A stretch of DNA of 64,000 bases from Moniliella sp. 'wahieum' (GCA_003971905.1 RSEE01000049.1:124001-188000); one strand, 5' to 3'. Positions 2,780-62,758 are shown, counted from the stretch's first letter. Notes: generated from the letters alone by a model not told the origin. Program-made: numbers and translations.

Positions 2780-4218
2780 CTAGGAACTCCCACGAGTCAT
2801 TACTGCATGGGGCAACCACGCGGCAGCAGGTCGGAGGTAAGCAGCACTGGCCCGTGCCACCCGAGGCGAACAGCGCCGAACCGAGAGCTACCGAGGGACA
2901 AAGCAGCGTGCTAAACTAATACCCTGTTCAGGCCTCCACACCGCCTCGCAGTCTCGCAGTATCCCCATTCTCGGGGCCTGCATCGCTCAGTGCAACTACA
3001 CCCTCGGCAGCCCTCAGCGTCAGCGCCTCAGCCACCACCCACCACTGTCAGCTCGTCTCGCTGGGGGCTGGGGCGGGCCGGTCTAATGCATTAATCAGCT
3101 GTTACATAGAGGGCCATGTGCTTGTCTATCAGCTTCAGGAGCTTCAGGGCCTCAGGCTAGCTTCAGACTTCACGTCACCGGTTACCGTCGGACAGTCTCT
3201 GGGTGTGGCAAGAGAAGGACACACACCTCCTGGGCCCATCCCGCCACCCCGCCACTCGCCACTCGCCACTCGCCACTCGCCACTCCGTCCGAGGACTACT
3301 CCACGAGGCATCAGTACATCAGTGCACCAGCCACCATGCATCATGCATCTGCATCAGCCCTGGGCGGGCGGAGGCGGGATCGTTTGGGGGAGCGAGAAGG
3401 CGATTGAGAGAGGCGAGTGTCCCATGCCACAGATGCTATCAGCACGCAGCGATCGTCGATGGTCGATGGCCCAGCCAGCGTCCCAGATCTCGAACGCGCG
3501 GCCTCCGCGGACGGAGATAAGGCCGAACAAGATACGGGGCCACACCAAAGCCGAGACATGCCGCCCACGTGGCGTCGGCCGCTTGGAGGGGATGCAGTTT
3601 TCAAACTTCAAGCTTCAAGCTTCACGTGAAGCTTCAAGCAGATCCCAGCGCCCAGCGGAGGCTCGATCCCACCCCACGCATCGGCAGTGCCCGCCCGTGT
3701 CTCAAGGCATCCTCAGCGTCGCCCCGGCCAGTGGGCGCTGGGCGCTGGGCGTCACTAGGTCACTACAGCGCTTCAAAGCTTCAATATTCAATTCACTCGA
3801 TCGCTGATCTCGGAGCTTCAGCGCCCTCAACACCCGCGTTTCACAATTTCACGCCTCACGGCATCATGCATCGTACATCACGCGTCACCACAATCCACAT
3901 GCCGTTGCAAGTTGCAGCACGTGTCCATATCACGTGCTCTCCATCTCACCGCCCATGCTTTCTCCCACCTGATCATCGCTGTACGCGCCGATCCAGCACT
4001 CAGCGGCTAAATGTCCACACCAAGGAATGGATGCAGGTATGGTTGAGCAGCAGACAATCTAAAGAATCAAGTGAAAAGGGGGCACAGGAGAACCAATAAG
4101 CCCCTGCGCCAATCCGCCCATCCGATCAAAGCACAGAGAGGCAACCAAGGCAGAACAACGTGGGAGGTTGATTCAGTCCAGCAAGCAACCTCCTCCGTCC
4201 AACTCGCGCCTTGTCCAT

Positions 4219-4958
4219 TTACGAGTTGTGCCACAACAGCGTTTTCAGCCCCTTCCACTTCTCCGCATTGACGTACAAGTCTGTTGACGCGTCAGTACCA
4301 AATCCTCTAATCTCTCCTCCATGCATAGGGCCAAGGAGAAAAGAGGGGGGGGGAGCAACGTACAGTCCATCGACATGACCAGTCCATTCTGCAGTGTCTG
4401 CCTCCGCGCAACAAAGTCCCACATAACCAAGGCCCAGGTCACCGCGGCAAACGTCTTGAACACCCGCGCGTCCGTAGGGATGGGCTTGGTCGCCGGCCAA
4501 TCGGGTGCGACCTTGGCGCGAGGGAGGAAGGAGGAGACAATACGAGCGGTGCAGTAGAGCACAATTTGCTCATTCACTGCATTCCGTTCCCCAAACACCA
4601 CGTAGCCCCCCAACGCACCGGCCAACAAGGCCTCCAGTTGATCTCCGCCACTCGCGCCGGTCAACGAAGGCGGCTTAGCGTACCGCCCACGCAGCGATCG
4701 CAGAAGGATCGTGGCGCCCTTGTAGAGCGCAGCAAACTTGAGTAGATTGGTGGCATGTTGCCGTGTCGCGCGGTACACGAACCGCGCCCGGTCCTGCGCC
4801 GAGCCGCGGCCAAACAGGACGGACATGACAAGCGCATGCGGGAACCGGATCTTGGCCCCATACACCGCACCATTGCGGGCTGCCTTGAGCACAGACAGGA
4901 GGCCGTGCAGCTCCGGGCGCAGGATGAGAGATGTCAGAGCAGCATGTGCATCGGACAT
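4219..4958 (-). CDS. PXMP4: Peroxisomal membrane protein 4 (PXMP4/PMP24, Tim17-like family)
   Basis: 'LSVLKAARNGAVYGAKIRFPHALVM', 'GGYVVFGERNAVNEQIVLY'. Intron 4281-4363 (GTACGT..CTGAC..CAG) restores the end 'MDYLYVNAEKWKGLKTLLWHNS*'. Confidence 0.88.
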
Positions 4959-6026
4959 GGTATGGAGGGGGCAGACTGCCTGAGGTCGGGCGAACGAGAG
5001 GTGGGGCGGGGACAGGTCGGGCAGGCCGCCAGCCGAGTCTGCAAGCTCCAAGCTTTGCCCCTCAGGCGTCACGCGTCACGCGTCACCCTGCTAGGCCGGG
5101 TGGGGCCTGTGTGGCCGGTGGGGCCTGTGTGGCCCCGGGACGAGCACTGCAGGTGTGAAAGACGGCGCCATGGGGATTAGGTAATCGGGTGGATATTGGG
5201 TACTGCTTACCGGTTGCCGGTTACTGATTGCCGGTTACATTTTGATTGGTTGCAACTGGCCCAGGCCGGCGCAGTGCGCTTCAGCTGGCACCGCACAGGG
5301 GCACTGCAGCCAGCCCTTATAATAAGCGTAATGGTTGCCTCCCTTCGTTGCTACTGTCCTTCGCTCCCCCTTCCGGGTCGCGTCCGCCGTCGCTTGCTTG
5401 CTGCTCCACTCAATACATCCTTTCCGCTGCTTTGGTCTGATACTCAGATGAGTTTCCTGACGTTTTCCCTCCTTGCGTTGTGGGGCCAAAACATAAAGCG
5501 GAGGAAAAGTACAGTGGATCTAAAAGAAATTAGAAAAGAAGCCTACGGGAAGATCTCTGCAGGAAGATCACCGTCTGATCCATAAGACGGGACGAGAACA
5601 ACCAACTCGAATCGGAAGAGAGAGCAAGGCAAAGACAAGAATTGGAAAAACGCTCACTCGTTCCCTTAAAGCGAAACCGTTCTATGCACAGCAGATGCGT
5701 GACTCTTTTTGCACTAGAAAAGAGGAAATGACAGTACTAGAGTCATAGGTTGGCTGATCTCGTACCCTTTTACAATTTGTTCGTCTCGAGTGTCTCGCTC
5801 TTTTTCCCTATTCTTCCGCTTCACGCCTATGTCCTTTGCTGTTGTTTCTTCCCCACGAACAATTCCGACATTTTTTGGCCTAGTCTTGGCTCTTGCCTCC
5901 CTCGCCTTCTCAGAGCCTCGAGTGTGATAGGTAGTGTAAGCGCTCTCCTCAACAACAGTATCTTTTACCCTATCCAGTCTGATAACACAGTCCACAATAA
6001 GGACACTGAGAGAAAAAGGACAAAGA

Positions 6027-6176
6027 GAGATGAAATCCACATATGGGCAGAGCAAAGGCGATGAAATCCACAAGGACAGAGAACAAGGAAAGGAGAGATG
6101 AAATCCACATAAGGGCAGAGAAAAGGCGATGAAATCCATATGGATGGGGAAAGAAAACGAGCGATGAAATCCACAT
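6027..6176. repeat. Minisatellite: GATGAAATCCA core x5
   Basis: Core starts at 6029, 6060, 6097, 6128 and 6163 (spacings 31, 37, 31, 35). Spacers are purine-rich and similar to each other. Confidence 0.85.
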
Positions 6177-6299
6177 GGGTACAGAACACAAAGGAGCGAG
6201 AGAGGGCGCGGAGAAAGCCTAGGCGGAGCGACCAAAAAGAAACGAAAGTGGAAGAGATAAAGGTAGGAAAACAAGTGAAATAGACACATGGGGTGGAGG

Positions 6300-8148
6300 G
6301 GGCGTTGCCTACACGGCCGACCGCGTGGATACGATGATCGGTTCGGGATCCGGAATGGGATACTCGATGCCATCGAGGACGATGGTGCGAATGGGTGCCG
6401 AGTTCGGCGACCAGCGGATGGCCGCGCCAGCTGGGTGGTGCGCGGTGGGGTGTGAAGACGATCGACGTCGAGAGAATCTTCGGCGGGGACCGATTCCGTC
6501 TCGGGAACGGGAAGCAGTGCCGGCGCGACCGGGACCGCTTCGTGCTGACGGTCCTCCTGTTTTTCCGTTTGCTTCGATCCATTCTCCACCTTGTTGGGCT
6601 TGGAGCTGGACGGCCCCGGTTTCTTGCTCTCCTTGTCCTCGGTCCCTGTTGACCAGAAAGAAGAAGCAAGCGCGACGGCGCCTCCTGCGGACGGCCAAAG
6701 ACAATGTCCGAACCAGGCATGTACTCGTACCCGGCCTTGTTGGCGTCGAGGAAAAAGTCCGGGTCGGCAGTCGCGGCGCCCTTGCGGAACTGGTCCCCAT
6801 CGAGTAACCCCAGTCCCTGCAGCGGCGGCTTGGCTTCGTCCACCTCCTTGCGCACAGCTTGCATGTGCACCCGTAGCTGTCGCAATGTGCCTGTCTGTAC
6901 GCTCGGCAACGGACGGGACGATCCATAGGTAAACGCCGACGTCTCTACATCTTCCTCCAGTAACGCCATGGGCGCCGGTACGGTGATCTGGGCAAGGCAT
7001 TGACGCGCTTGGTCTTCGTCCCACTCCGTCTGCAGCGGGTAGGCACAAACGTGACGGACAATGGCTGAGCGAACGGTACGCAGTTCCTGACGCGCCTCGA
7101 GTGCAATGCGCTCGTATTTCTGGCTGCGTTCGCTGAGCTTTTGCTGTCGCATCACCGACCGTTCTTTCTCCCGACTGACATGGTTGATGCACCACGTAGC
7201 CTGGGCAAAGGAGCACTCGAGAGTTTGGTGCAAACTGCCTTTGTGGTGCTCAGAAGCCCGTCGGGTGGGCAACTTGTGCAGCTCGACAATTGTCATGTCG
7301 GGCAAGGCAGCGACGCCAATGTTGGCCACACGAGCTTGGGCCATGATGGTAAACAAACGGCCGCTAAGAATCTTGGCCATCTGCAAAATAGGGGAGATGG
7401 TACGGGTCAATTCGTATTCGTGACCATTGAGGATCTCCTTGCCCGTGGGGATGCGCGACTTGATGCGAATGTCGACCGTCTTGGCAATCGCTTTGCGCAC
7501 ACAGGCCAGTAACTCCTGTGCGGTCTTTTTGGCCTTTTCAAGATAATCCCGGCGCATGTGCTTCTCGCGCTCCGATTCAAACAGCAGTTTCTTGCTCAGG
7601 TCCGTCAACGAGTCGAGCTGGAACTGGGCTTTCTTCTCGTGGGTGTGCCAAAGGCCTGCAATCTTCGTCGCGGGCAGAGGTTGGAAGAGCGTAGCATGGA
7701 ACTGGTCCAGCTCTTTGACCACCTCACGGCGCTCCATGGCCAAGTGCTGGAGACGAGCCTTGTCCCGCTCTGCCTGCTCAATGTGTTGCAGCAGTTGCGC
7801 CAGACAAGCGCGGGCATCGGTCTCCCTCTGTCGAGCCCGGAGCAGCTCCTGCTGTAGCTGCACTGCCCGACGTCTCTTGGCGCGCGAAAGACGCACAAGA
7901 GCGCGCTTGCCAAGGTGGGTAGTCAGTTCCTGGTGCTGCTGCTGGGACGACTGGGCCGCGATACCCATCGCGCGCAGTTCCTTCACCTGCACACACAGGC
8001 GACCACGACTGGTATAGATCGCCTCGTCAGCCCGCTCCACTTTGGCATCCAACACGCCAATGGCCTCTAGCCGCGTGCTCAGCGTCTCGTGTCGCGCGCG
8101 CCCGGCCGTAGCCAAGGCAAGAGCCGCGGTGGGGGCCAAGACGGACAT
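6300..8148 (-). CDS. Hypothetical coiled-coil protein; 3' end uncertain
   Basis: Long ORF from ATG 8148 with L/E/Q/R/K-rich helical composition over about 480 aa. The distal part changes frame and runs into low-complexity sequence. No family recognised. Confidence 0.65.
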
Positions 8149-8971
8149 GGCTCGTTAGCGAGGGGGGGGGCGGGGTGGTGTGCGGAGAGCACACCCTTCC
8201 TGTTTTGCGTGCGCCCCCACGATATACGCCCCCCACAACCGCATACCGAACGAGTGGGGCTTGGCAAGTCAATCATGATAATCAATCTTCTTCAATCTGC
8301 AGGCTTCAAGCTTCAAGCTTCATCGAATTGATCATCAGCATCACGCGCACGGGCGTGTGGGCGGCCAGGACCGCAGTGTGCGCACGGCCTGCTCCTTCAC
8401 TTCCAAGGGTCTTTCTTTCCCCTCGTTCGTTCGCGCAGAACAACAGAACGAGGTGTGACGAATGCTGAGTACACTGTGTATGCTGAGCTGGCCGTACTAC
8501 AGAGGCGCAGAGGGGCAGCGGAGCCAGAGAAGCGCATCAGTGTTCTACGGCCACGGAACTAGCCTCTCATCTGCGCACTCCGCAGTTGAACGTTGAACGT
8601 TGGGGCGGTGAGAAACTCAGCCCAGGCGCTCAGGTGGAGCGAGGAGGCTGAGCGCGCTGAGGGCCGGGACTCGTTCGTACTCAGCGCCCTCAGGGCCTCA
8701 GCCTGCGAATGTCAAATGGTGCGGTGAAGCTTGAAGGTGTTGCCTGTTGCCTGTGATATGTGACGCCAGCTGTGAGTCAGCGCAGCCCACGACAGCTCAG
8801 CTTGAACGTTCAACTTCTCACCCGCGCAGCTCAGCTCAGGTCGCTCAGGCCCACTATCGGACGGTAACCCTATCTCTTTTTCGGTAGGGTTTTGGAAGGG
8901 TCACCGGTCCGGCCGGTGAGGCGATTAAACTGCGTGCTGGGGTAAATATTAAATGCACCTCGGTTCTCAAG

Positions 8972-8999
8972 CTTCAAGCTTCAAGCTTCAAGCTTCAAG
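8972..8999. repeat. (CTTCAAG)x4 tandem 7-mer array
   Basis: Four exact units at 8972, 8979, 8986 and 8993. One example of the window-wide nnTnAnn arrays. Confidence 0.95.
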
Positions 9000-9220
9000 T
9001 CCCTTGCTCCGCCCGAAGACCGACCCCGTCCGATGTCGGTCCCATTGCACCCCTTCCTCTCGCCCCAGGTCCCGATTCACGTATCCTGTCTCGTCCAATG
9101 ATCATTGAGCGCATTGAGCGGGCTGCCTGTCACCATGTCACCACAGACGGAGACGATCGAAGGGCCTCGACGATCGCCCTCCCCCTTTAGAGGTTTTGCG
9201 TGACCCTATGGAAGAGAAGC

Positions 9221-9398
9221 AAGTCTCAGTGGAAATGGTTCCTCGCTCGGATGTCAACCACGTTCCTCCGTGTCCACACGCGCTTCCTAGGGTACGGGAC
9301 CGGATGGCGTGAGCCGGAGGGCCTGATATCCTGGCGATCCCCCTGGTCCCTTAATCTTGGTGGCGCTTCCAAGTAACCCCCGCAAGATGAACGGTTCG
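9221..9398 (+). mobile_element. Short 3'-terminal fragment of the RLE non-LTR retrotransposon found at 32.0-32.8 kb
   Basis: Near-identical to 32664-32842 (AAGTCTCAGTGGAAATGGTTCCTCGCTCG...CCCCCGCAAGATGAACGGTTCG), with scattered substitutions and a 1-nt indel. Confidence 0.85.
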
Positions 9399-10199
9399 TG
9401 TTGGCCTAGGGAGCCGGACGGGCAGAAGGATGAGGAGAAGGTGATGGATTGGAGCCAGAGTTGGGTCTGGGTACAGAGGCATCTATATAGGAGGCTGGAC
9501 TAGGCACAGGGACAGTGAGTCACACAGGAGAGAGTGCAGGGCACAGGGACAGTGACACGCAGGGACGTCAGCGTGGAAGCCGATGGAACCGAGGCGAACC
9601 TGGTCTACCGACTGGGAGCCAGAGGATCACAGTCAACACGGGCGAAGGCTTGGGTGAGGAGGCAGAATGAAGGGCGCGGGCGGTTGCTGGACGCAAGAGC
9701 CGGATGGTGTTGGTGGAGCGGGGCAGGACGGAACACAGGCCGCTGTGCAGCATGGGCGGCGTGACACGGAGCACCGACATGGTCGATGGTGGGTGAACGC
9801 AAGGGAAGAATACCGACAGGAGGCGTGCTGCGTGCTGGCTGAGTGGGGGGGGAAGCGAGATGGGCGGGTTCCCAACGGGATGTCCTCAATCTGTCGGGCC
9901 GAGCACCCCAGTCGCCGGGCCGGCTTGCACTGGGGAGCCGGATCTATCATCAGGATCAGGATCAACGAGGGTCACGTATTCAACTTTCAACGCCTGAGGC
10001 CTGCCTGGGCGCCTGAGGCCTGAGGAACCCAAGGCCGGATGTGGGTCGGTTGGCTGCGTACGTAACGGGGTACTTGAACGTTTGCTGCTCCTCGGGCTCG
10101 GCGGCCGGTTGCGCCGGGCCGCGGCAGGCGTTGGCTGCCTCGGCTGCTGTGAGTTGAGTGTGGTTCGAGCGCCACCGAGCGTCCCCACCCCCACCACCC

Positions 10200-15270: not shown

Positions 15271-16135
15271 GCGGCTCGCTTCGGTTTTCCTTTCCCCTTG
15301 TACAGGCTACTTCAACATAGTAGCCGTCCTAGGGCGTGCTCAACGCATCGCCCACGCTGGACACTACCAACCCTCCACTGGCTGCATGCCATGGGGGGAC
15401 CTACACCAATATTGACCCACACCCGACTTGTACTGTTCAACACCATATTTGTAAGATGATTCAACATCCTGTATGAATACAACTGCATTCGTGCCCCCCT
15501 CTTGTGCTTGGGTTTGAATGGACAAGGCGAGAGAGATCATAGAATCGGTCGAGATGCCCTCTGCTTCCAAAACGTATGCGGTGTCAGCTGTGAGGTGTGC
15601 GACTTTGCCTCCTCGTGCATGATGCGGCCTGCACCACATCATGTGGCAGAGCGGTGGGCAACATCACCGTGTATCTCTAGTGTGGGACCTTCGCTGCCCT
15701 GAACCGTATGCGCTTGGCTTCGTCTTGCTACTGTTTTCGCTCCAATATGCTCATCGCTTATCGTTCGCCTTCAAGGTATACGATGAGGAAGTGCTTCCGC
15801 TTGTGGTCCCCAAGCAGCAGGTGCCCATTCGGTGCAAGTGGGGGCCGAGCGCAGGGTCTGGCACTCGTTCCGCGAGAAAGGGCGGAAGAGGGCGACTTTT
15901 GAACGTTGCAAATCTGCGAGGCGGAGTCGACTGATGGGGGCGTATATGCGCTGCAGCCTATTAATGCCGCCGCGTGAGCCGGCCTGATTGATAGCGGCCC
16001 AGTATAGGCCTGGCTCTACGATCTAACTACTACTCGACGCGTCTCCCCGCCTTCCACCGCAACCACCACCACCACGCCTCCTCTTGCGCCGCTGCCCCCC
16101 TTGTCCAGATCGCATCCCGGGGGGCGCTGCTCGCC

Positions 16136-22074: not shown

Positions 22075-23341
22075 GGTGGCTAAGCTGACAGTGTGGTGTG
22101 AGCCTAGAGGGGGTGGGGATAGGAGCTGAGGATGAAGATGCTGGATGTGGGGGGGCTGGGGCGGGCTATATATACACCAGTGGCGGAGGTTGCGTCACCA
22201 GCGCATCAGCCTGGGGCGTCTGGCCAACCAGCTGGGGTGGTAGTGGTATCGCTTTGTGCGGGGGGCCCGGCTGGCGCCGTGCCTGCCGCATCCGACAACA
22301 TTTCACTTTTACCCCACCGCGATGACGGAGGTCTAGACGAGCAGCCAACACTGGCCCGGTGCTGCGGGCGGTTTGTCCGCTACGCCCGAATCCGTTTCCT
22401 CCGCCGGAGCGGGGATTTTGAAATGTGCAGCTTCGCTCGGACCAGCCCCGGTCACCGTGTCACAGATCACCGCCACGGTCAGCGTTGCAGTCACCGAACG
22501 CCGTGCAATGCATGCCAAAATACATAGTGGGCCGCGGGTGTGCTCTTGTACTGGCACCAGCCTGCGTAGGCCCAGCGCCAGTCTGGCGAGCGGTTCGGCT
22601 CCGCCTCCCGTCTCGGCTCCAGCCTGCTCCCGCTTGCCCGCCGCGGCGGCTGGGGAAGCCGGCGGCTTGGAGCGCTTAGAAAACCCAAGCGTTATTAGCG
22701 CCGCTGATTAATTGGCGGCGGATGGGATTGAAAACATTACCTACTTGTTCATTAGTTGCAATTTAAAATGTAACCCTTGATCACGTTACGCGTTACGCCT
22801 TAGTCGTTAATCGATAATCAGCTTAATCATCACGAGGAGACACCCGGGCCTACGGCCCGGTCAGCTGGGGCTTCGCCCCAGCTGGGTACTTGGTCGCCAC
22901 CTTAGCCACCCTTCCCCGGTCCACCATTCCACGCTGGAACCCTTCCACGCTGGAAAGTCGAAATAATATCACCGATGCTTGCTGCTGGGTGGCTGGGAAC
23001 GTGGCACCGGTCGGCACGTGTCTATGACGTAAAAGATGCACGGCGGATCAATTTTGCGTATGACATAGGGGTGTTCTCCCTCTCGCGTCCATGTCACGTC
23101 ACGCTACATGCCACACCCGAGCGCGCTTCGGCACGCGTGCAACCGTTGCCCTTTCTGCTAAGGCGTAGCGCTTAGCGCTTACAGACCGCCGCGCATCCAA
23201 TGCTACGCTATTGTATGGACGCGAAACAGCACTACCGATTCCCAGCGGCTACTAGAGGACACACCAAACACATGCCAAAGGAGGATATTCTTGCAGTATG
23301 GAGCTGCTGGTACAGGTAACAGTACAGGTATTGGCATCGCC

Positions 23342-23676: not shown

Positions 23677-24314
23677 TCAGATGTCGATGAATTTAGAAAT
23701 GCAGCGAAACAAGAGAGAAGGCATACTTTGTCAGTGAGAAGATCAAAGAGGTGGATGAAGGAAAACAACAGTTGGGACCCCAACCCGCCCGCTTTTATAT
23801 CAGTCCTCTCTGACGCGTTGAATATGAGACCGCTCCTAGTGTGGTATCGACCAATCATCATGCATCATCGATCGTCGATCATCAATTAATGAACAGGATT
23901 GTGTCTGAGATCTGACACCCAGAAGGGGCTGCGTCAGCTGGGTCCTGCTGCGTCTCGTTTCCCGACTTGTGAACGTTGTGAACGTGGTATGAGGCCATGA
24001 GGCCTATGAGGCTGGGGGATGCCCATGTTCGTTCACACGTTCACAAAACAAGAGAAAGCGATGGCATCCACATTTCAACCCTGCAACATTTCAATAGTGT
24101 ATCTTCGTTGTCGGTGGTGATGATTCTGTTGGACTCAAGCAGGCGAGCGCGTTGTGAACGTACGGAAGGCAGATTGTATGTTGCGCTTGCTCGCCCTTGG
24201 CTTGCGGCTGTTTGGCACCCGCATGCCCCTCTCCCGAAGATATATATAGCACCTTTGCGTGAGGTTGCAGCCACCCCTTTCCGTTATCGCATTGCTCCCC
24301 GCTTTACTCGCATC

Positions 24315-28960: not shown

Positions 28961-29419
28961 GGCGGGGAGGAGGTGGGTTGGTGGCGGCAATGAGGCTGGC
29001 CGGGTTGCGACTCATCTGAGTTCGGCGTACAGGTGCATCGGGGCCGCGCCCCTGATGACGTAATCCACCATAGGTCGAGAGAGGTTCCTTTGATATGGAC
29101 AAGTCAATCCGCGCGTATTAGGGACGCAGCGTGACGCGTGACTGTCCCAAGCCCGTCTTCATCTATTTGACCACCAGTCTGCCCTGGGATCGTAGGCCCA
29201 ATGCTTCATAGACTCCCTATCTCTCTCTGTTGTTTGAAAATGTCGAAGGTGTGCACAGCGCTATCCTTTATCTTTGCAGCAGTTAATAAATAGTATCCAC
29301 AGCTTACTGGATCCTTCTCTGTGTTACGGATTCGGTGTGAATATATACGGCAAACCTTGTTGGAAGTTATGAGAGGCCCACAGAAAGATGCTTAGAACGA
29401 ACGCTGATCGTTGAATATT

Positions 29420-31630: not shown

Positions 31631-32009
31631 TAACCCCAGGTGTGCTTGCCTCTCCCTCCCCCTTGTCTCTTCCCTGTCCTCACATAACTACCAGGACACC
31701 AGGCGCACCCATATTCGTGCAGTTTTTTCTCGTCGTATACGCGATGTACTAGCGTGCATCACGCACCACTTGTGCCGATCACAGCAAGCAGCCTTCAATT
31801 CTTCATCTACAGCAGAGAGAGCGCATTTTGTGAACGCTCACTGGTGCCGACTCGCGCGACATCTGATTTGGACTGAGCGAATGGCGATAGTTACCCTCGC
31901 CACTGTCATCGGCATTGCCGTAAATGAGCCGGCAATTAACATGGGTGTGCTCACATTGACGCAGGAGAATAAAAAAGGGGGATGAGATGGGTGGAGGTGG
32001 GGCTTTATA

Positions 32010-32842: not shown

Positions 32843-32962
32843 GTTTAGACGTAGCGTTCCCCCTGTCCCAGCCTTAAGCTCTGTCAATGGAATGCACACA
32901 ATATGGGCAGTAAGTTCATTATCAGCGCCAGGCTCGCCCGAACATTCACACGTTCACTGGGG

Positions 32963-41088: not shown

Positions 41089-41547
41089 TTGGGAGATAGG
41101 TGATGGGGAGTCTTTCGGAGTGCGCTTCGGTTTTTCTTTTTTTCCCTCTGACGAAGACGACGAGCTTGAAGCTTGAAGATGACAAGAACTTGAAATTGCA
41201 GTGTGTGTGGTGTGGGTAAACGGTGGCCGCCCTCTGCACCATCAGAGGTCTACCGATCAGACGGATCAATTCCAGCTCTCTAGCTCCTAGCCAGGTTACT
41301 ACACACATGCCGTGACACTGCCGATAATGGCAGCTGGATCGGCAGCACACAATGCATACTTAGAGAGAAGAGACATTATGTATAGGAAAGAAGACCATCT
41401 CTGTAACATGTGTAAGAGGCGCCAATTAAACGCTGTTGTTTCACAGCGGGCGTTTCGAGTGCCATAACGCATAATAATGGCCGGTAACCGGTAACACCGC
41501 CAGAACGGAGCCAGAAGGGTATGATCCCATCTTGCACCATTCACACT

Positions 41548-44275: not shown

Positions 44276-45567
44276 GGGCCTGGCAGCGATTCTCGCAGTG
44301 GTGGGATGAAGCTTGAAGGTTGAGACTGACCGTGCATGCAGCCGAAATGTCCCTCGTCGGCGTTCAGCGGCTCAGCCGTGAGGCTCACGCGTTCAACGTT
44401 AAGTTTAACGTTCAACGTTCAACCTGAAAGAAACCCTCGCAGTGTGTACTCAAAGCCCCCAGCACCTGGGCACTGTGCGTGCGGGACGTTTGCGCGACGC
44501 GTCTGGGCCAGCGTGACGCGTGATTGGTAGTTGCATCGCGTCGCGGGTATCATCGATCATCGATCATCGATCATCGACATCCCTCCGAGCTGGCGTCCTC
44601 TTCAAGTTTCAAGCTGCCTCCAGGTCCTGGTCCCTCGCTTCGCCGGCACTCGGTTACGTACGCGGACTTGCTCCACACGTGACGTGTGATATCTCACGTG
44701 ATATGTGATCGCGTTGCGAAGCTATCAGAAGGCGGTGTGGGCTGGTACGGGGCCCCGGGGACGCCCGAGTGGCTTGTCCAGGCGATCAGAGACTCAGCAT
44801 GAGGCACTTTCTGGCACGCCACTTGGCGAGAAGCAATGGTTAATGGGCCGCCAGGCTACGTCAGCATCAGATCTAAGATTCCAAGAGTAAACACTGGCCA
44901 GCTGAGAGGCAGAGGCTGTGCCTCCGCACGAGCAGGCTTCTCAGCGCCAGCATTGAGAATTCAGATCAACAGCCCACATTCGATGGGCGAACAAGTACTG
45001 GTTCGGATGTGCCGTCGATGTGTGTGCTCGAAGATCGATGAGGCCGACGAGGGCCCGACCCCAAACCCAGGCCTTTGCAGGCTTACAAGAGGTAAGGCCA
45101 TCCGACTCAGTCGGTCCACCCGCAGCGTCACAGAGAACCCGACACACAGCTTATCTCTATGTTCCAATCTCTATATGGCCCACTTCTGCTACAAGCTGCC
45201 ACAGAGGGCCATTAATCATTCATCATCATGATCCATCCGCTCGCATCGTGCGAATCGTCATCATCTCTCTTTTTCGTCCCCGTCAACGTCAACCAGGTTG
45301 CCCCACACTAGTGAGTACGCGGCCATATTGCGCACCAAGAACAACATCATCCACACACACACGCACACACCACCAGCGGACAGATGATGACTGTGTGGAA
45401 TGCTACACTGGTATAAAAGGTTCTCCTTCAAGTTGACACTCCCTTTTATTTTCCTCAGACCTCTGGTCACCTACAACCCTCTCCTACACCAACCCTTCTC
45501 ACCTCACACCCTTCAACAACCTCCTTGGTTGTGTTGCACCCAACTCGCCAACAACCACGACAAAGAC

Positions 45568-51735: not shown

Positions 51736-54700
51736 GCCGGGCGGCGACGACGACTGGGGGGGGGGGGGACACAGAGACGAGGGGCGGAGGGCAGGGGCGA
51801 AGGAGTGCAGAGCGGTGGTGGAGGCGGAGTATATAGTGGGCACGTATATTGATTGCACGGCCAAGTCGGCTGCCCCCCGGGGCGGGGCCCTTCTGCTCCG
51901 CTGTGCGCTCGGGCTCACTGCCGCAAGCTGCGACGCAGCGCTCCGGCTGTGTCCTCGCCTCAGCAGCCTGGAGCGCTGGGCAACTGCGGGGACTGAGCAC
52001 CAGTGTATCCATCAGATCCCAGAGGACGCGAATGAGTGGGCGCACTCAGTCCCAGGACACCTCGCTTGGGTCAGACTCCGTCAGAGTATGCGTACTCAAT
52101 GAGTACATCCCTCGGCCACATCATCCATCGGCTGCATCATGCTCCTCCTGAGTGGAGTAGCCCAGCAAGTTCACTTGATCATGCACCATGCATCATGCAC
52201 CATGCACCACTCCCACCCCCACGCTGATGCATGACGGTGACGCGTGACGTCCCTGACATGTGGCATGCGCCTGGGAGTGACAGGTAGCTGTGACGTGTGG
52301 CATGCTGGCCGGAGCTTATTCTAAGCGCTATCTGCCCACGCATCAACAAAGTCACCGATTCTGCTGCTGGGTACGCGTGATTGGTGGGCTTGCCCTGGGG
52401 TACGGCCCTGGCAAGGCCTAGCGAAGCCCAAGCAAGGTCTGGCGTCGCCAGCGGGGCTGCAGCCGAGATCCGATTGATATCTTCCAGTATTCAACGTTCC
52501 AATTCTGCTGGATGAACGTTCATTGAACGATCAAGGCCTCAAGCCGCTCAGCCTGAGCGGCTCATCGCTCAGTGTATTCAATGCGGTCAATAGTTTTGGC
52601 ACGGCCCATGGAGTGTTCCTGCCTGTTCCTTATTTTCCTCCCTCACGCGGTACCCAAGCCGGGGCAAGCAAACGCAAGAAAGATTCCTGGGCCAGCAACG
52701 CGTTAGGTACGGCATGTCCCAGAGCAAACCGATTGGTGCCCAACGCGCCCAACTCGCGTCCTTTGTTTCAGCACACATACATGTGGGTCTACCGTGTGCG
52801 GGGAGGGGGGCGAGGAGGGAGAGAGAGAGACAAGATCCGGGGAAACATAACCAGGAACTGCTCTGCCTTTTTACCACTCAGACCACACCGCTCCTTGAGG
52901 AGACCTCTCTCCTTCTTTTGCCCCACGGGCCCATATGTGTGCCTTTCTTCGCGGAGAGCTCGTTTATTTGGGATCTTCTTCGGGCTGTCTGGAAGGGGTG
53001 TAACATGTAACAGGTTGCTGTACTGAATATACTGATGAATGAGGCCTGAGGGCCCGAAGCTATGTAGGAATCCGAGTGGAACACTGTCCTCTATGTGCCC
53101 TCCCAGGCCCTCCCATGTACGCCAGCCGTCACAACGCCGGCAACTGGGCAGACCCGTGATCGAGGCTTCCGGGGCGGGCGATTGAAAAAACTGCCATCGA
53201 CATGCTCAGCCTGAGTGCTGAGACTCAGCAAAGTGGACTGCATGGTGGTACTTACGTCTCTCTTCAGAGTGCTACACGTGGTCAGAGCTAATTGCGACAT
53301 CGAAGCCTAGACCGTGGATTGTCGAGAAAAGAAAACAGGGTGGGGGGCAGGGGACCACAGAGGCCGCTACGCGTTCAATACCATGGGGTTTGCTGGGGTG
53401 TCTCAAGCGTCAAGTCCGAGTCTCCTTCAATTATTTTGGGGACATATAATTTTTGTCTTTTCTTCGGGCTCGCTTCCGGTCCAGCCGCTCTGGCTCCCTC
53501 TGGCCGGGTGCCAAGCCCACCATCCCTGTCTTTTCTATACCTAACCCCCTTTGTAGAAGAACGTTTGATGGTCTGGAGGCTTTGACGTTCTTCCCCCCTT
53601 TGATTCAAAACATATACGAAGATCTCCTCGGGCAACAGGGGAGTTCTTCCGCATCATCTCCCGTCGTTGATGAGATGAAAACCGTCCATCCTGCATGATC
53701 ATGCTTTGAAGCGTTCGTCGATCTGTTGTGTCCTCCCGACGTGAATATGATGAACACATATACCTGGGTGGGGGTTACCTATCCCCCCTATCCGTCTCAA
53801 CTCCATTTACTGTATTATGCATCAGGAATTAAAGCGTCGATCTCGGCGAGCACATCTTCTAGAGTCGAATCTCCACTCCATGGAGCGAAGCAGATATAGC
53901 GAATTTGAATATTCGTCCCAGCACAGTATACCGCTAAAGTACACGGTGTCCTTGAAAAGGAATACCATTAGATTCTGATGGGATGTCCTCCCCTTTTCGC
54001 GCACTTTGATCCCAAGACTCATCCCGCGACAAGCGTCACCGCCCACGCACAACTAAAAGTTCCACCAGGACCTTGAACCTCTGTCCTCGAATCCAGTCCG
54101 TGTGGTCCCATTCGATGTATAATATCCGCACTTGCGCAGGCTTTGTTGAGGAAGAAAACTGAGTATCTTCGATCCATAATATTCCCTGCGCCAGCCAGTA
54201 TGGTAATGCCTGTCGTTCGTCCGTGCAAGTACGCGGTGACAAGGCGTCTCTGCCCCAGCTTCTCCTCCGGGTGCAAACCTTTTCTCACCTCGGCCGCGCT
54301 GCGAGGAAGACAGCCAGCCGGCCTGCCTGTCGGACGCTCTCTGGTAGCAGGGAGCACACCACTTCCCGCTCCCACCTGGAGCAAACCTATACAACTGTGG
54401 GTGGCGGTACCACATATCTACCCTCGCAAAGAAAGATGACGATGCGGGGCGTACGGTGCAGCATGGTGGTGAAGCTGCGGTGGCACACACGCAGCGGTGA
54501 AAGCAGTGTTTTACACAGTGCGAGATCCCCAACTGAGGGGGGAGAAGAACAAACACCAGAGGGCTTGATCAAAAGATGTTTCGTCTTCAACAAAGCCAGT
54601 ACCTCAACTCCACCTAGACGAGGGGGCAGATCCTTCCCCCTGCCTTGCCTGGAAGGACAGAGTGACAACATATCAACGTACTGATCAACTACAAGCAAAT

Positions 54701-55256
54701 GGACGCAACGGTCATGTACAACGTCTCGTCCTTTTGTCTAGTTGAAACCCTCCCCCTCCAGCACCCCCTCTGAACTGTTCGGCTGTCGTGAGTGGGAGGT
54801 ACTTTGTCGTGTATGATGCCAGAAGCCTGTTTCTATATCTAGATGGGATGACGAAGGAGGAAATACCCATTGCCGCACTATAGTATGCAATCTGTAGTTG
54901 TCTCTCGCAAGGATAGGCATGAGAAGAGGCCCATCTTGATGCATGTTGGGGAAGAGGATGCATCAGCCTGATCTGTGTGACATGTGACTAGATGGCTCTT
55001 CTCTCCATACTACCATGGCTGCATCTTTTTCAGGCGCCGAAGCAGGAAGGAAGCTGGAAGCGAGATGGAGCGTGAGAGCAAAGTTAGGTGACGCGCGTGA
55101 CGGGGGGGGCGACATGTGGGTAGCCGGTGATTTGGCGATGGCCCGCCAGCATGAAACGTTCAAGCGGTGTTCGGCTCCCAGGGTTAGGTGAGCGCCGGGA
55201 GTATGCAAGGGCATGCATGCATGCATGCACATGCGCGGTGTGCGGCGGGGGGAGCA

Positions 55257-55304
55257 TGTGACATGTGACATGTGACATGTGATGCATGATGCATGATGCT
55301 GATG
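55257..55304. repeat. In-register 7-mer array (TGTGACA)x3-TGTGATG-(CATGATG)x2
   Basis: Units at 55257, 55264, 55271, 55278, 55285 and 55292, preceded by (GCAT)n at 55211-55228. Confidence 0.95.
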
Positions 55305-55667
55305 CATGTGCGGCTGGCTGCTGTGGGGCGTGTGGCGAGGGTGCTAGTGTGGTGCACTCGTGGCGCCGCCCGGCTGCACGCACGGGGGCGCATCCGCATG
55401 TGGCACAGGGCGCCCGCCAGGGGGCAGTGTGTTGCCCGGTTTGTTCTGGCGGAACAGGTGGTGCTGACTTGGAGCTGGGAGACTCAGGCTGTCGGGAGCT
55501 CCCTATTCCATCCCGAGCACCGAGCAGTCAGGCGACGGGTGATCGGTGAGGCTCACTAGCTGCACTGGCCGCGGGTCCAGGGTTCTGCGCCGTATCACCG
55601 GTGCCAACGTGACTTGGCCAGGCACTTCCACTCCCCCTCGTCGCCCCTCGTCCCCCGGGTGCCGAGG

Positions 55668-58600: not shown

Positions 58601-59017
58601 AGTCGCAACAGCTGAACGCGTTGCAGGACACTGTGATGCGTACCGAGGTCTTTTGGCACAACATCAAGCTGTGCGAAGCCGGATGGTGGCGCGCTACCAT
58701 CCCAGGGGGAACAATGCCGCCCTGCCAAGGCCAACGGGACCCGCAAGCAACATTACCTTCTCGACGAACTGAGCAAGTACCGTAACTACGTCACCGTTCT
58801 CCGTGTCGCCCGGGACAAACGCGCGCGGCTGCGCCGCAAACCAGATGGAACGATTGTCGATCCGCTGGTGGAACCGGTGAACGGTACTTTGGACTTTGCT
58901 TCTGCTTCTGCGTCTGCTTCTGCGTCTGCTTCTGCGTCTGCTTCCCTTCCTCGTCCCACTCTTGCTCAGCCTCCTCATCCTTCTTTCCGTGGCTTGCCCC
59001 TAACCCCTAACCCCTAA
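55668..59017 (+). CDS. SYT1: Sec7 + PH domain ARF guanine-nucleotide exchange factor (Syt1-like); start uncertain
   Basis: 'YMDHFDFTNKSVDAALRMLCGKLLVRAETQVLDRVLDAFAHRFYECN', 'LLLNTDLHVAD', 'LALVGPPWAKEGML', 'KDKSWLEVFAVV', 'YLLDELSKYRNYV'. Last frame stops at TAA 59015-59017. Confidence 0.85.
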
Positions 59018-59021
59018 CCCC
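58997..59021. repeat. (CCCCTAA)x3 telomere-like interstitial repeat
   Basis: CCCCTAACCCCTAACCCCTAACCCC read directly; overlaps the SYT1 stop codon. Confidence 0.8.
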
Positions 59022-59985
59022 TCATCCATCTGTCCCCTGTCAGCTTATGGCCCCTGCGTCCGGGCCTAGCTCCGTTTGTTTATATCTTGCTGTGCCTGTC
59101 CATCTTTTATGCACTGCTTGTATCATCTCTTGGGGAGAGAATGTGGTACGCTGTGCTTCTTCTCTCCTTTCTTCTCCTCCCCTGTTCTTCCTGTGTGTAG
59201 GCAGAAACACTGTCCGGAAAGCGGTGTGGCGGTAAGGTAAAGTGACAACCCGGATGCGCAGGCGTCCCAGGTCAGGATCTACGATCATACCCTTCTCCCC
59301 TTTTCAGCAGTCTCTCATTCACCCCACCATCGTCAGCGTCGTTTGCATAGTGATGCTAGCTAGCCCTGATATACGCCTTTATAGGCCCCTCCCTGCCTTG
59401 TCTATGCTTGGACCATTGCCCTTGTATTCGTACGCACGCCTGTATCGAAGGCCGATCGTGGGTTTAGCCATGGACGGGACGCGGGCAGAGGGGAGATGTT
59501 CAACGTCTTCAACATCCAGTGTCCACCTTGGCACTCGCCGGCGCTGCAACCAACACCAGCCAACGCCGCCCTCCCGCCCGCGCCTGGGCTGCTGTGCTCG
59601 CCAGCCCAGCGCCCTGGTGCTGCGCCCGCTGCGCTCCGCGCCACGTCGTGTGGTGCGCCCCGCCCTGCACAGGGGCTGTGTGTTACGTCACCCGCTGGAG
59701 CATCACGCACCCAGCGTCACCCGTCAGATGTTCAGATCTCAGAGCTGGGAGCTGCGGCGCTTCAAGAAGCAGCCGGGCGGGACACAGCCCCTGTGCTGTT
59801 CTTTCCCCTGTCCCCTTCCCGCTCGCGTCTGGCCGCCATGGACCATCCATCGCTGCCGGCGGGGTTGCGCTGGCAGTACACGCTGAGGTGCCTGCCGTCT
59901 CTGCGCCACCTCCTCCGCGTCCGCTTTCCCACCCCGCCGCCACCCTCACCCTCTGCCCCGCTCCTTGTCCCCAGCTCAGCCAACC

Positions 59986-61074: not shown

Positions 61075-61451
61075 CTAGACGGGGGATACATTGGCCCCCT
61101 TGGAGGCAAAGTACTCATCGAGCAGGGCAAAAAATTGGCGCTTGTCGCGGTAGCTCAAGGGGGAAAAGGCGATCGGATGATGCTCATCCAGCGACTGGCT
61201 AGGCGAAAAGGTGCGAACGGGAGCAAAGAAGAAGAGGAGCTGGGGGACGGAGAAGGTAGGGCGGAGGGGGTTGTCAATCCGTTCTCATTGTTCATCCGCG
61301 GTGGTGGCAACTGTGGCTTGGCACTCGACGGGAGAGGCGGGCTGCGGCTCCCGAGCGAGCTGGAGGCGGAGGAGGTGCACCACCCCGTGCAGGAGGAGGA
61401 GGAGGGCATTGCCCGCGTCTCTCGAGGGAGGGAGGGACGACTATGGCTCAT
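61075..61451 (-). CDS. Small hypothetical Ser/Pro-rich protein
   Basis: S/P-rich ORF from 'MSHSRPSLP' that, after one indel in a homopolymer, continues into the protein-like 'LSYRDKRQFFALLDEYFASKGANVSPV*'. Confidence 0.4.
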
Positions 61452-62237
61452 CCCACTGGCACCCCCAGCAGGCGGGGGAGGAAGACGGTGTCGCACACTG
61501 CTCCCCCCTGGGTATACTCTTCCCCCAGCTCGTCATTGTGACTTTGGCTCTGCGTCTGTTCCCACCGCACATTTTCCCCCCGCCACGCGCCACCGGTCTT
61601 TGACCCCCATCCCGTGCGCCCCCGTTTGCTGTTCGGCATACTTGGCTCGCTGGTGAAAAAAAAAGGTCAGTTCAACCTCCTTGCAATCCAACACACACGT
61701 CTCAAAGGCTCCGCTGCGTCACGCACCACTGCTTCGCTGGCCCCGGCAAACTTGGATTTGACCCCGGACATTGTTCAAGGGATGATGCAGATGGTGGGTA
61801 AGAGGGTGAGTCGAGTGCCCTGAGCTCCTCGGGACTGCGCCTCAGTGGCGTGAACGTTGAACGTTCGGCGTTGTTGGGCTGAACGTGGAGGACGTAACAC
61901 GTTATAAAGTCGCTCTCTGCGCTCGCGCCGCTAAGGCTGGATCGGATGATAGGGTCCTGCGATCCGCAGTCACTAGCTTTACTAGTTACTATTAGTTACT
62001 AGTTACTTGCTACTGTGCCTTTGTACTTTCTGCATTTGGCGCGCTCATCGACATCCCATGCCGCTTAATTTCTGAAACCAAATGACTGAAACTCCACAAG
62101 CACGTTTCCTTTCCAAATGCGCGGCCGTATTGACGCTAGACCAATCCACGAGGTACAAGCATAAGAGATGGAAGGAAAACTGAGAAATGGCCCCGCTTCC
62201 AGTGTGTAAAATAGAACGATGGAGACGGTGGCATTAA

Positions 62238-62336
62238 GGGCTCATGGTGTAGTGGTATCATGCCTCTTTCGGGACTTTCCCGAGCTGGATTCAGTTCGAA
62301 TAGAGGTGGTCGTGGGTTCAATTCCCGCTGAGCCCC
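62238..62336 (+). tRNA. tRNA-Pro(CGG) with 27-nt intron
   Basis: Acceptor GGGCTCA/TGAGCCC, D-arm TGGTGTAGTGGTATCA, anticodon stem CCTCT/AGAGG with CGG at 62270-62272, intron 62274-62300 after position 37, T-loop GGTTCAATTCC, TTTT terminator just downstream. Confidence 0.93.
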
Positions 62337-62758
62337 CTTTTGGTATATCTTTTTGATCGAAGGCTGATCGATCATCATGCCCTATCGACATGTTGGACAC
62401 ACGGCTTATCATCGCTCGGTATATAGGAATGTCCAGTGGCAGGGGCCGGAGGCCTCTGGTTTTAGCCTGGTCTGTTGGGGATGTCTTTGCCCGATGCCTT
62501 GCCCCCGCCTCTAATTCATTGGGCGCGAGCTGTGAGGAAAACATGAGCGAACCTAGAAGGCGATAAACGTGCCTCCTCAGTTTGTCACTCCGCAAGTTCA
62601 GCCAATGCTTTGAAGATCTAATCCTGCTATATCACGCCTCTCAGGGCAACGTTCCACATAGCTGCCCCCAGTAGGGAAACGCGCTTCATTAGACCTACTG
62701 TTTGGGTAACTCCCAGCTCGCCGTCGCCCTCTTCGAATCTATATACCACTCGTTGCTC

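What the first reader, a model, noticed from the sequence alone, without database searches (positions are those of the whole stretch)
3128..62376. Window-wide intergenic arrays of 7-bp nnTnAnn units: candidate scars of an undescribed recurrent DNA cut-and-repair or transposon-footprint system
Seen: many intergenic regions hold 2-6 in-register 7-mers with T at position 3 and A (sometimes G) at position 5, usually odd palindromes. Examples: CTTCAAG (3606, 8304, 8972, 34245, 39840), CTTGAAG (41165), GTTGAAC/GTTCAAC (8585, 44410, 61856), CGTCACG/CGTGACG/CGTTACG (5067, 22784, 29130, 44512), CCTGAGG (10012), GCTTAGC (23170), GGTAACC (41483), GATCATC (44555, 62370), TGTGACA/CATGATG (55257), AGTTACT (61994). 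The sequence changes from locus to locus but the 7-bp period and T-n-A centre do not, and I did not notice them inside CDSs. Slippage would not fix both period and symmetry, and a single transcription factor would not tolerate so many sequences. Established: hAT transposases and RAG leave hairpins on flanking DNA whose opening adds palindromic (P) nucleotides, and cut-and-paste excision leaves target-site duplications. Inference: repeated insertion/excision, or repeated breakage, at a 7-bp nnTnAnn target in open chromatin would build exactly these direct and mirrored arrays. No transposase or nuclease for this is seen in the window.
Basis: partly seen in the sequence, partly recalled or inferred. 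Interest (0 to 1): 0.88.

Follow-up and report, generated by a model that had tools for sequence, protein, structure and literature searches.

The report
Palindromic 7-base repeat arrays in promoters
Short head-to-tail runs of a self-complementary 7-base unit with a fixed T-x-A centre are scattered through the non-coding DNA of this fungal genome piece far more often than chance allows, and no known mechanism fully explains them.

Summary
The window is nuclear DNA of a basidiomycete; its nearest named relatives are Ustilaginomycotina. Non-coding DNA holds 33 exact period-7 tandem arrays, against 1.95±1.25 in dinucleotide shuffles. Nineteen of the window's 38 such arrays have a unit that is an odd palindrome, and all 19 carry T at position 3 and A at position 5 (xyTNAy'x'). 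No shuffle produced one. Remove this class and the period-7 peak disappears. Other palindrome centres (AnT, CnG, GnC), periods 5, 6, 8 and 9, and single-copy TNA palindromes show no excess. So the anomaly is a unit-specific tendency to duplicate in 7-bp steps, not a favoured motif.

"nnTnAnn" is too loose, because the arms are always complementary. Only 1 of 19 non-palindromic arrays has any T.A. The window holds no transposase, no TIR element and no element flanked by such a duplication.

My best reading, at low confidence, is in-situ tandem duplication of a two-fold-symmetric, hairpin-capable 7-bp site in promoter-containing spacers. Regulatory site arrays and 7-bp target-site-duplication scars (precedent: Galileo) remain live rivals. 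Nine literature searches found no description. Strain and genome-wide comparisons could not be run.

The parts
3308..3356 (.). Imperfect array of CATCATG-type units (exact core 3335-3349, 2.1 copies)
   Evidence: TRF period 7, 6.9 copies, 74% matches; exact run and palindromic rotation
3599..3639 (.). TTTCAAA followed in phase by CTTCAAG x2.7, then a 5-base interruption that creates a perfect palindrome, then one more CTTCAAG
   Evidence: TRF 3600-3639
5060..5086 (.). CCTCAGG followed in phase by CGTCACG x3.0; about 100 nt upstream of the first ATG (4958) of the Tim17-family gene
8290..8322 (.). CTTCAAG array (exact 8303-8322, 2.9 copies), 149 nt from the 5' end of the minus-strand ORF 5968-8154
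8585..8602 (.). GTTGAAC x2.6
8967..8999 (.). CTTCAAG x4.7, the purest long array
   Evidence: as single-stranded DNA it folds with a T-N-A triloop, z = -4.7
9992..10025 (.). CCTGAGG array (exact 10011-10025, 2.1 copies; TRF 5.1 imperfect copies)
22784..22802 (.). CGTTACG x2.1-2.7, followed by decaying units that keep T3/A5
23166..23181 (.). GCTTAGC x2.3
23856..23883 (.). Imperfect CATCATG / GATCATC units in the spacer between the divergent histone H4 and H3 genes
   Evidence: TRF 23864-23883
29129..29142 (.). CGTGACG x2.0
41163..41178 (.). CTTGAAG x2.3
41481..41495 (.). GGTAACC x2.1
44390..44423 (.). GTTCAAC array (exact 44407-44423), 36 nt from the 5' end of the SNF2-family ORF
44549..44581 (.). 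GATCATC x4.1-4.9
52221..52249 (.). Imperfect CGTGACG-type array (TRF 4.4 copies, 75% matches)
52999..53012 (.). TGTAACA x2.0; the only array inside a segment that my map scores weakly as coding
55255..55308 (.). (TGTGACA)x4 running in phase, through the hybrid unit TGTGATG, into (CATGATG)x2.9; about 260-290 nt upstream of the Sec7-domain gene
61851..61865 (.). GTTGAAC x2.1
61979..62007 (.). AGTTACT array (exact 61993-62007, 2.1 copies)

Best explanation
The arrays are products of a DNA-level, in-situ tandem-duplication process, not imported sequence and not sites of one binding protein.

The substrate is a two-fold-symmetric 7-bp site. It has three complementary arm pairs of any sequence around a free central base, and the innermost pair is always T.A/A.T. 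Such a unit and its arrays are self-complementary. They can form a mini-hairpin or cruciform whose tip is the T-N-A triplet.

I infer that this structure, or the symmetric and easily opened duplex, is acted on by a dimeric or structure-specific activity with fixed geometry. Each event adds exactly 7 bp, for example by cuts 7 bp apart followed by fill-in and end joining, or by mis-processing of a looped-out 7-nt hairpin. Each product renews the substrate, so arrays grow to 2-5 copies and then decay from their edges.

Shown: the statistics, the symmetry rule, the 7-bp specificity, the lack of single-copy enrichment, and the location in non-coding spacers that contain gene 5' ends.

Inferred: that a hairpin or cruciform intermediate and a protein with a T/A requirement are involved, and what that protein is.
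For: 1. Only tandem copies are in excess. In non-coding DNA, T.A-centred odd palindromes with an in-phase neighbour of the same class number 33 against 0.5+-1.1. Isolated ones number 84 against 79.3+-8.7. The unit therefore duplicates more readily; it is not a motif kept for its own sake.
2. The rule is structural. Arms are complementary in 19 of 19 arrays while their sequence varies; 10 arm dinucleotides are used.
3. The step is fixed at 7. 34 T.A palindromes with arms >=4 exist outside the arrays, yet 0 of the 7 exact period-9 arrays in the window is palindromic. After removing the 18 TNA arrays, the excess over shuffles falls smoothly with period: 21, 13, 6.7 and 4.9 for periods 6-9.
4. Units of different sequence abut in phase: TTTCAAA|CTTCAAG, CCTCAGG|CGTCACG, and TGTGACA...TGTGATG...CATGATG. 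Arms change in complementary pairs.
5. As single strands, the six palindromic arrays tested fold into hairpins whose loop is T-N-A (z = -4.7, -2.9, -2.3, -1.4, -1.3, -1.2). Three non-palindromic period-7 arrays do not fold better than shuffles.
6. No mobile-element features were found in the window.
7. The flanks of the CTTCAAG arrays are not homologous, so the arrays are not carried by a dispersed element (family D1).
Against: - Hairpin stability alone does not explain the data. C.G- and G.C-centred palindromes are about as common or commoner as single copies (137 and 120, against 84) but give 0-2 in-phase pairs. Longer arms should fold better, yet period 9 is absent.
- The fold z-scores are modest for four of the six arrays.
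- No enzyme with this geometry and T/A requirement is known to me, and none is encoded in the window.
- Some units recur at several loci (CTTCAAG type: four arrays plus single copies; GTTSAAC: three arrays; CGTNACG: three arrays). That fits a functional motif better than a blind mutational process.
- All 19 arrays lie in spacers that hold a gene 5' end, which selection on promoters would also predict.
- All of this rests on one 64-kb window.
Confidence: 0.35

Rival explanations
1. The arrays are cis-regulatory. They would be homotypic clusters of palindromic sites for dimeric DNA-binding proteins, or for general nucleosome-excluding factors. They would arise by tandem duplication and be kept by selection in promoters.
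For: - All 19 palindromic arrays lie in spacers that contain at least one predicted gene 5' end, 36-1174 nt from it. None lies in the six 3'-3' spacers, which total 3.8 kb (and my gene list).
- The same units recur upstream of several unrelated housekeeping genes.
- The divergent H4-H3 spacer has a clearly organised layout. Two direct 9-mers and their two inverted copies flank a triple repeat at 23967-24045. Promoters here evidently do hold ordered repeated motifs.
- One unit contains the hexamer that I recall as the fungal cell-cycle box.
- Non-palindromic arrays also look like factor sites, for example the telomere-like CCCCTAA x3.7 at 58997.
Against: - Single-copy xyTNAy'x' sites are not enriched in non-coding DNA (84 vs 79.3). 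Real binding motifs usually are.
- No known protein family would read ten different arm sequences while always demanding T.A next to the dyad.
- Other palindromic hexamers and heptamers never form arrays (0-2 in-phase pairs for the three other centre classes).
- The absence from 3'-3' spacers is not significant (about 2.5 expected, my arithmetic).
- Distances to gene starts are widely scattered.
Confidence: 0.25
2. The arrays would be target-site duplications left by repeated insertion and clean excision of a cut-and-paste transposon that makes 7-bp staggered cuts at a symmetric T-N-A-centred target in open chromatin. A transposase-derived nuclease doing the same is a variant. Hairpin opening could add the palindromic bases.
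For: - A real precedent exists. Galileo (P superfamily) makes 7-bp duplications at an odd-palindromic consensus inside a 15-bp palindromic motif that may form a stem-loop (abstract and passages read).
- hAT, MULE and Transib transposases form hairpins on flanking DNA. These are opened by host enzymes and joined with footprints (passages read).
- The fixed 7-bp step, the two-fold symmetry and the invariant T/A all fit an enzyme with fixed geometry.
- In-phase pairs of different palindromic units sharing the central base are what symmetric hairpin opening of a non-palindromic site would give (my inference).
Against: - The window shows no transposase domain (300 of 302 ORFs of >=95 codons scanned).
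- It shows no TIR element.
- It shows no insert with inverted ends between two copies of a candidate duplication: 0 real cases among 473 pairs.
- A target preference gives a statistical consensus, not exact complementarity of variable arms in 19 of 19 arrays. Non-palindromic nnTnAnn arrays are nearly absent (1 of 19).
- Galileo's consensus has A at position 3 and T at position 5 and is one fixed sequence. Hermes uses 8 bp.
- The arrays are pure, with no remnants of element ends.
- Only 2 of about 12 arrays have the partner unit that the simple hairpin model predicts.
- About one array per 3.4 kb would require thousands of fixed, clean insertion-excision cycles in a lineage that shows no element here.
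Confidence: 0.2
3. The pattern is chance, base composition, or an assembly or sequencing artefact.
For: No reads were available, so misassembly cannot be excluded directly. Part of the general excess of short tandem duplications at all periods is ordinary.
Against: - 18 arrays against 0 in 100 dinucleotide shuffles.
- 19 of 19 arrays have T3/A5.
- The arrays are short (14-54 bp), differ in sequence and sit in unique flanks. That is not how collapsed or chimeric assemblies look.
Confidence: 0.02

Closest known systems
Hairpin-forming CNG trinucleotide repeats (recalled from general knowledge, not from a call)
   Same: The unit is an odd palindrome: complementary outer bases around a free centre. 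The array is self-complementary with one mismatch per unit and can form slipped hairpins, which are held to drive unit-wise length change.
   Different: The unit here is 7 bases, not 3. The innermost pair must be T.A. Copy numbers are low (2-5). Many different arm sequences occur. Many separate arrays are scattered over the non-coding spacers of this one window (19 in 64 kb). G/C-centred analogues do not expand here.
Galileo / P-superfamily DNA transposons: 7-bp target-site duplications at a palindromic target motif (PMC4168063, abstract and passages read)
   Same: A 7-bp step, an odd-palindromic site and a possible stem-loop at the target.
   Different: Galileo has one fixed consensus with A3/T5 and AT-rich surroundings. 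Its elements are present and flank the duplications. It is described in Drosophila. Here the arms vary, the centre is T3/A5, no element is present, and copies are stacked up to five deep.
hAT / MULE / Transib / RAG excision with hairpins on flanking DNA and palindromic (P) additions (PMC5499845 and PMC10368747, passages read)
   Same: This is a known way to create short palindromes of arbitrary sequence at a break. Target patterns are symmetric, with T and A at mirror positions (Hermes nTnnnnAn).
   Different: These elements make 8-bp or 8-10-bp duplications and leave irregular footprints rather than pure arrays. By my inference, the Hermes geometry predicts A-n-T, not T-n-A.
Bacterial intergenic heptamer direct repeats, e.g. 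TAACTGA arrays in Beggiatoaceae (PMC4679880, seen only as a search listing and the start of the abstract)
   Same: Tandem 7-bp units, two to several copies, in many intergenic regions of one genome.
   Different: A single fixed, non-palindromic unit, in bacteria, with a proposed post-transcriptional role.
Tandem repeats in yeast promoters that tune nucleosome occupancy and expression (recalled, not from a call)
   Same: Short, length-variable tandem repeats concentrated in promoter DNA.
   Different: Those are mostly AT-rich and have no symmetry rule or fixed period.

Membership tests
Transposon target-site duplication / excision footprints | Elements of the family, with terminal inverted repeats and a transposase, exist and are flanked by the same duplication | tested here: not met
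   Within the window only: no transposase domain in 300 of 302 ORFs of >=95 codons, no TIR element, and 0 real cases among 473 candidate pairs. The rest of the genome could not be tested.
Transposon target-site duplication / excision footprints | The duplicated target follows a statistical consensus; bases outside the consensus are free | tested here: not met
   Arms are exactly complementary in 19 of 19 T.A arrays. Only 1 of 19 non-palindromic arrays has any T.A.
Transposon target-site duplication / excision footprints | A fixed duplication length set by the stagger of the cuts | tested here: met
   The class has period 7 only. Periods 6, 8 and 9 have 2 of 62, 0 of 7 and 0 of 7 palindromic arrays.
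Ordinary micro/minisatellite made by unit-blind replication slippage | Head-to-tail copies whose abundance falls smoothly with unit length and does not depend on unit sequence | tested here: not met
   There is a peak at period 7, due entirely to one sequence class: 18 of 33 non-coding arrays, against 0 in 100 shuffles.
Ordinary micro/minisatellite made by unit-blind replication slippage | Copy number varies among individuals or strains | not testable with these tools
   No second strain, reads or related fungal genome could be reached.
Hairpin/cruciform-forming repeats | The array is self-complementary and folds better than composition-matched shuffles | tested here: inconclusive
   Six arrays were folded. 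z = -4.7, -2.9 and -2.3 for three, but only -1.2 to -1.4 for the other three. The non-palindromic controls do not fold.
Hairpin/cruciform-forming repeats | The tendency to expand rises with hairpin stability (G/C pairs, longer arms) | tested here: not met
   C.G- and G.C-centred palindromes give no arrays. No palindromic period-9 arrays exist despite 34 seeds.
Transcription-factor binding-site cluster | The motif is also enriched as single copies in regulatory DNA | tested here: not met
   Isolated T.A palindromes number 84 against 79.3+-8.7 in non-coding DNA.
Transcription-factor binding-site cluster | Located in promoters and conserved across related species | tested here: inconclusive
   19 of 19 arrays lie in spacers with a gene 5' end, but the contrast with 3'-3' spacers is not significant. 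Conservation could not be tested.

The most novel reading that the evidence does not exclude
This fungus has an undescribed, recurrently acting DNA cut-and-repair activity. It would be a two-fold-symmetric or hairpin-forming nuclease, possibly a domesticated transposase. It would attack T-N-A dyads in open promoter DNA, and its repair would add exactly 7 bp of self-complementary sequence each time. The genome would thus write its own palindromic heptamer arrays, which may then be co-opted as promoter elements.
Probability: 0.18. Interest if true: 0.9.

Novelty: new variant of a known kind. Interest (0 to 1): 0.62.

Why it matters
If the pattern holds genome-wide, it is a clean natural signature: a fixed period, a strict symmetry rule and one invariant base pair. 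It points to a specific molecular step that makes short tandem duplications in promoter DNA.

Such signatures are rare. They can expose a new repair or nuclease activity, explain how promoter repeats originate, and supply fast-evolving markers.

Three questions become directly testable. Does DNA secondary structure drive repeat birth in vivo? Does an unknown enzyme do so? Or does a hidden transposon?

If the arrays instead prove to be conserved binding sites, they would define an unusual promoter grammar for this little-studied fungal lineage.

Tried and rejected
1. Chance or composition was rejected by order-2 and order-3 Markov simulations and by dinucleotide shuffles.

2. A general preference for palindromes was rejected. 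The A.T-, C.G- and G.C-centred classes are at expectation, and periods 5, 6, 8 and 9 are not enriched for palindromic units. Period 5 shows at most a mild T-N-A trend: 6 arrays, by my reading.

3. Arrays carried by a dispersed element were rejected. The flanks of the CTTCAAG arrays are not homologous.

4. The inverted pair 22784/23158 (I8) as ends of an element was rejected. It has no flanking duplication, and by my estimate 10-mer inverted matches within 3 kb are expected by chance.

5. I tested for a strand rule on the central base relative to the nearest gene. The sense strand would then carry TGA or TAA, so three copies would place stops in all three frames. The result was 13 of 19 arrays, which is not significant (my count).

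6. Promoter versus 3'-3' spacers gave 0 arrays in 3.8 kb against about 2.5 expected, which is not significant.

7. The simple symmetric hairpin-opening model predicts a partner unit beside every array. Only about 2 of 12 arrays fit it.

8. Rfam gave no family for the arrays at gathering threshold. It also gave none for the 190-bp repeat at E<=1.

9. Nine literature searches (the last two for background) found no description of such arrays. Searches, which used the unit sequences themselves, returned one unrelated plant paper and nothing. Subscription-only papers are outside the library.

10. Not done: related fungal genomes, strains and reads.

11. The first script returned no answer. I reran it in lighter form.

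Full report
WHAT THE WINDOW IS

The window has 58% G+C. Its ORFs are short and interrupted, and they encode eukaryotic housekeeping proteins:
- an ABC transporter and a Tim17-family protein
- cobalamin-independent methionine synthase and malate synthase
- Sin3, SPT6 and an SNF2-family ATPase
- histones H3 and H4
- a VHS/SH3 protein, a GATA factor, a Sec7-domain protein and cofilin

The Sin3 fragment finds its best named relatives among Ustilaginomycotina (Thecaphora, Malassezia, Pseudozyma, Tilletia, Jaminaea) at 38-48% identity. Other Basidiomycota score lower. The sequence is therefore nuclear DNA of a basidiomycete fungus with no close sequenced relative in that search.

I built a rough coding map from codon usage trained on six Pfam-confirmed ORFs. 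It% of the window coding and agrees with the Pfam hits.

CHECKING THE OBSERVATION

All 20 coordinates in the finding hold the stated 7-mer.

Exact tandem arrays of at least two copies at period 7:
- Whole window: 38, against 3.4±1.45 in order-2 Markov simulations.
- The 28.9 kb of non-coding DNA: 33, against 1.95±1.25 (maximum 6) in 100 dinucleotide-preserving shuffles.

The other periods in non-coding DNA are also above their shuffles:

| Period | Observed | Shuffle mean |
|---|---|---|
| 6 | 28 | 6.7 |
| 7 | 33 | 1.95 |
| 8 | 7 | 0.28 |
| 9 | 5 | 0.09 |

So this DNA is generally rich in short tandem duplications, but the absolute excess peaks at 7. Tandem Repeats Finder gives the same picture, with 32 of 121 rows at period 7 (my count).

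THE SHARPER RULE

Nineteen of the 38 exact period-7 arrays have a unit that, in one rotation, is an odd palindrome. Chance is about 0.12 per array. All 19 have T at position 3 and A at position 5, i.e. xyTNAy'x'.
- In non-coding DNA there are 18 such arrays; no shuffle in 100 produced one.
- T.A-centred units are about 19% of odd-palindromic 7-mers in simulated non-coding DNA. Nineteen of 19 is therefore about 1e-14 by my arithmetic.
- The arms vary freely. Ten of the 16 possible arm dinucleotides occur, and the central base can be any of the four.
- Only one of the 19 non-palindromic arrays has any T.A in phase. The rule is "complementary arms plus T.A", not "nnTnAnn".
- Removing the 18 arrays leaves excesses of 21, 13, 6.7 and 4.9 for periods 6 to 9. 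That is a smooth decline, so the period-7 peak is this one class.

WHAT IS AND IS NOT ENRICHED

Counts of odd-palindromic 7-mers by centre type, whole window:

| Centre | Observed | Expected |
|---|---|---|
| T.A | 246 | 165±10 |
| A.T | 186 | 173 |
| C.G | 334 | 319 |
| G.C | 308 | 331 |

- Distances between T.A palindromes peak at 7, 14 and 21 (21, 9 and 8 pairs). The other classes show no such peaks.
- In non-coding DNA, isolated T.A palindromes are at expectation (84 vs 79.3±8.7). Those with an in-phase neighbour of the same class number 33 against 0.5.
- Coding DNA shows nothing unusual.
- Thirty-four T.A palindromes with arms of four or more lie outside the arrays, yet none of the period-9 arrays is palindromic.

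The anomaly is therefore a strong, unit-specific tendency to exist as 7-bp tandem copies.

ANATOMY

- Copy numbers run from 2.0 to 4.7 for exact runs, and up to about 7 for imperfect ones.
- Array edges carry decayed copies that keep T-N-A and the proximal arm.
- Units of different sequence abut in phase: TTTCAAA then CTTCAAG; CCTCAGG then CGTCACG; and (TGTGACA)n, one hybrid unit TGTGATG, then (CATGATG)n. Where units change, the arms change in complementary pairs.
- One array is interrupted by five bases that create a perfect 16-bp palindrome.
- As single strands, the arrays are predicted to fold into hairpins of 5-6-bp helices separated by the unpaired central base, with a T-N-A triloop at the tip. 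z-scores against shuffles are -4.7 to -1.2 for the six arrays tested. Three non-palindromic arrays do not fold.

LOCATION

- Eighteen of the 19 arrays are in DNA my map calls non-coding. The other sits in a weakly scored segment with no Pfam hit.
- All 19 lie in spacers that contain at least one predicted gene 5' end, 36 to 1174 nt from it. None lies in the six 3'-3' spacers. Those total only 3.8 kb, so about 2.5 arrays would be expected and the contrast is not significant (my arithmetic).
- The array next to the Tim17-family gene lies about 100 nt upstream of its first ATG.

The window gives it no direct support:
- No transposase, reverse transcriptase or nuclease domain in 300 of the 302 ORFs of at least 95 codons.
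- No convincing terminal-inverted-repeat element.
- No insert with inverted ends between two copies of a candidate 7-bp duplication. The only three "hits" among 89 palindromic pairs were the arrays themselves, and there were none among 384 non-palindromic nnTnAnn pairs.
- Array flanks are not homologous.

A target preference would give a statistical consensus. It would not give exact complementarity of variable arms.

The hAT example does not fit. Hermes makes 8-bp duplications at nTnnnnAn. By my inference from that geometry, its flank hairpins would be A-n-T centred.

Galileo, of the P superfamily, makes 7-bp duplications at an odd-palindromic consensus inside a 15-bp palindromic motif that may form a stem-loop. 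That consensus is a single fixed sequence with A3/T5. hAT, MULE and Transib enzymes do leave hairpins on flanking DNA, which host enzymes open. I keep this model as a live rival at about 0.2.

THE OTHER EXPLANATIONS

Unit-blind slippage is excluded by the sequence specificity.

Hairpin-stabilised slippage explains the complementarity, the purity and the absence of single-copy enrichment. It does not explain why G/C-centred palindromes never expand, or why 7 is preferred over 9.

A T-N-A centre combines two weak pairs with a pyrimidine-purine step. That may make it the easiest dyad to open or kink. This is my rationalisation, not a tested result.

Regulatory site arrays explain the promoter location, the recurrence of a few units at several loci, and the clearly organised repeats in the H4-H3 spacer. 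They do not explain one invariant pair across ten arm sequences, or the lack of single-copy enrichment.

THE READING I COMMIT TO

At confidence 0.35, I read the arrays as in-situ tandem duplications of a two-fold-symmetric, hairpin-capable 7-bp site. An activity of fixed geometry that needs T.A pairs beside the dyad would make them, and each product would renew the substrate.

NOVELTY AND LIMITS

Nine searches of the paper library found no description of such arrays. The nearest items were bacterial heptamer repeats, seen as listings only. The library lacks most subscription journals.

I could not examine other parts of this genome, other strains, related fungi or reads.

The pattern is a new variant of a known kind: short tandem repeats and hairpin-forming repeats. 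Its mechanism is open.

Noticed in passing
window 62238-62336 (+): A tRNA gene, apparently with an intron. Rfam scores it 49.3 bits (gathering score 29), but ARAGORN found no tRNA anywhere in the window.
   Followed up: partly
window 9221-9409 and 32664-32853: A dispersed repeat of about 190 bp in two copies, roughly 93% identical, with sharp boundaries and no inverted ends or flanking duplication. Rfam gives no match at E<=1. The second copy overlaps the 3' end of ORF 31986-32795.
   Followed up: partly
window 58997-59022: An interstitial telomere-like heptamer array, CCCCTAA x3.7, between the Sec7-domain gene and the cofilin gene. It is the only non-palindromic period-7 array with a T.A in phase.
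   Followed up: no
window 23967-24045: The spacer between the divergent histone H4 and H3 genes holds a symmetric layout. Two direct TTGTGAACG units and two inverted CGTTCACA units flank a triple TATGAGGCC repeat. A further TTGTGAACG lies at about 24153, and a CCAAT box lies beside the heptamer units at 23852.
   Followed up: partly
window 2565-2607, 2652-2674 and 8153-8185: Long G runs (up to about 25 G) sit immediately upstream of the 5' ends of two minus-strand genes: the ABC transporter and ORF 5968-8154. They read as C runs on the sense strand.
   Followed up: no
window 6009-6199: A tandem repeat of 31-35 / 68 bp built around GATGAAATCCACAT lies inside or next to the 3' part of the large minus-strand ORF 5968-8154, which has no Pfam family. 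A weak relative of the unit lies in the H4-H3 spacer at 24047-24085.
   Followed up: no
window 12946-15317: The methionine synthase gene is spread over three overlapping ORFs in different frames (12946-13938, 13662-15317, 14959-15267). Either it has short introns or the assembly has frameshifts there.
   Followed up: no
window 48000-52000: A stretch with 65% G+C and many overlapping long ORFs on both strands contains a GATA zinc-finger exon (48160-48585, minus strand). It is probably one long, low-complexity regulatory gene.
   Followed up: no
window 3131-3166, 9103-9143, 22923-22955: Non-coding DNA also holds many two- to four-copy tandem duplications of 8-16-bp units that are not palindromic. 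The background rate of short tandem duplication is high at all periods here.
   Followed up: partly
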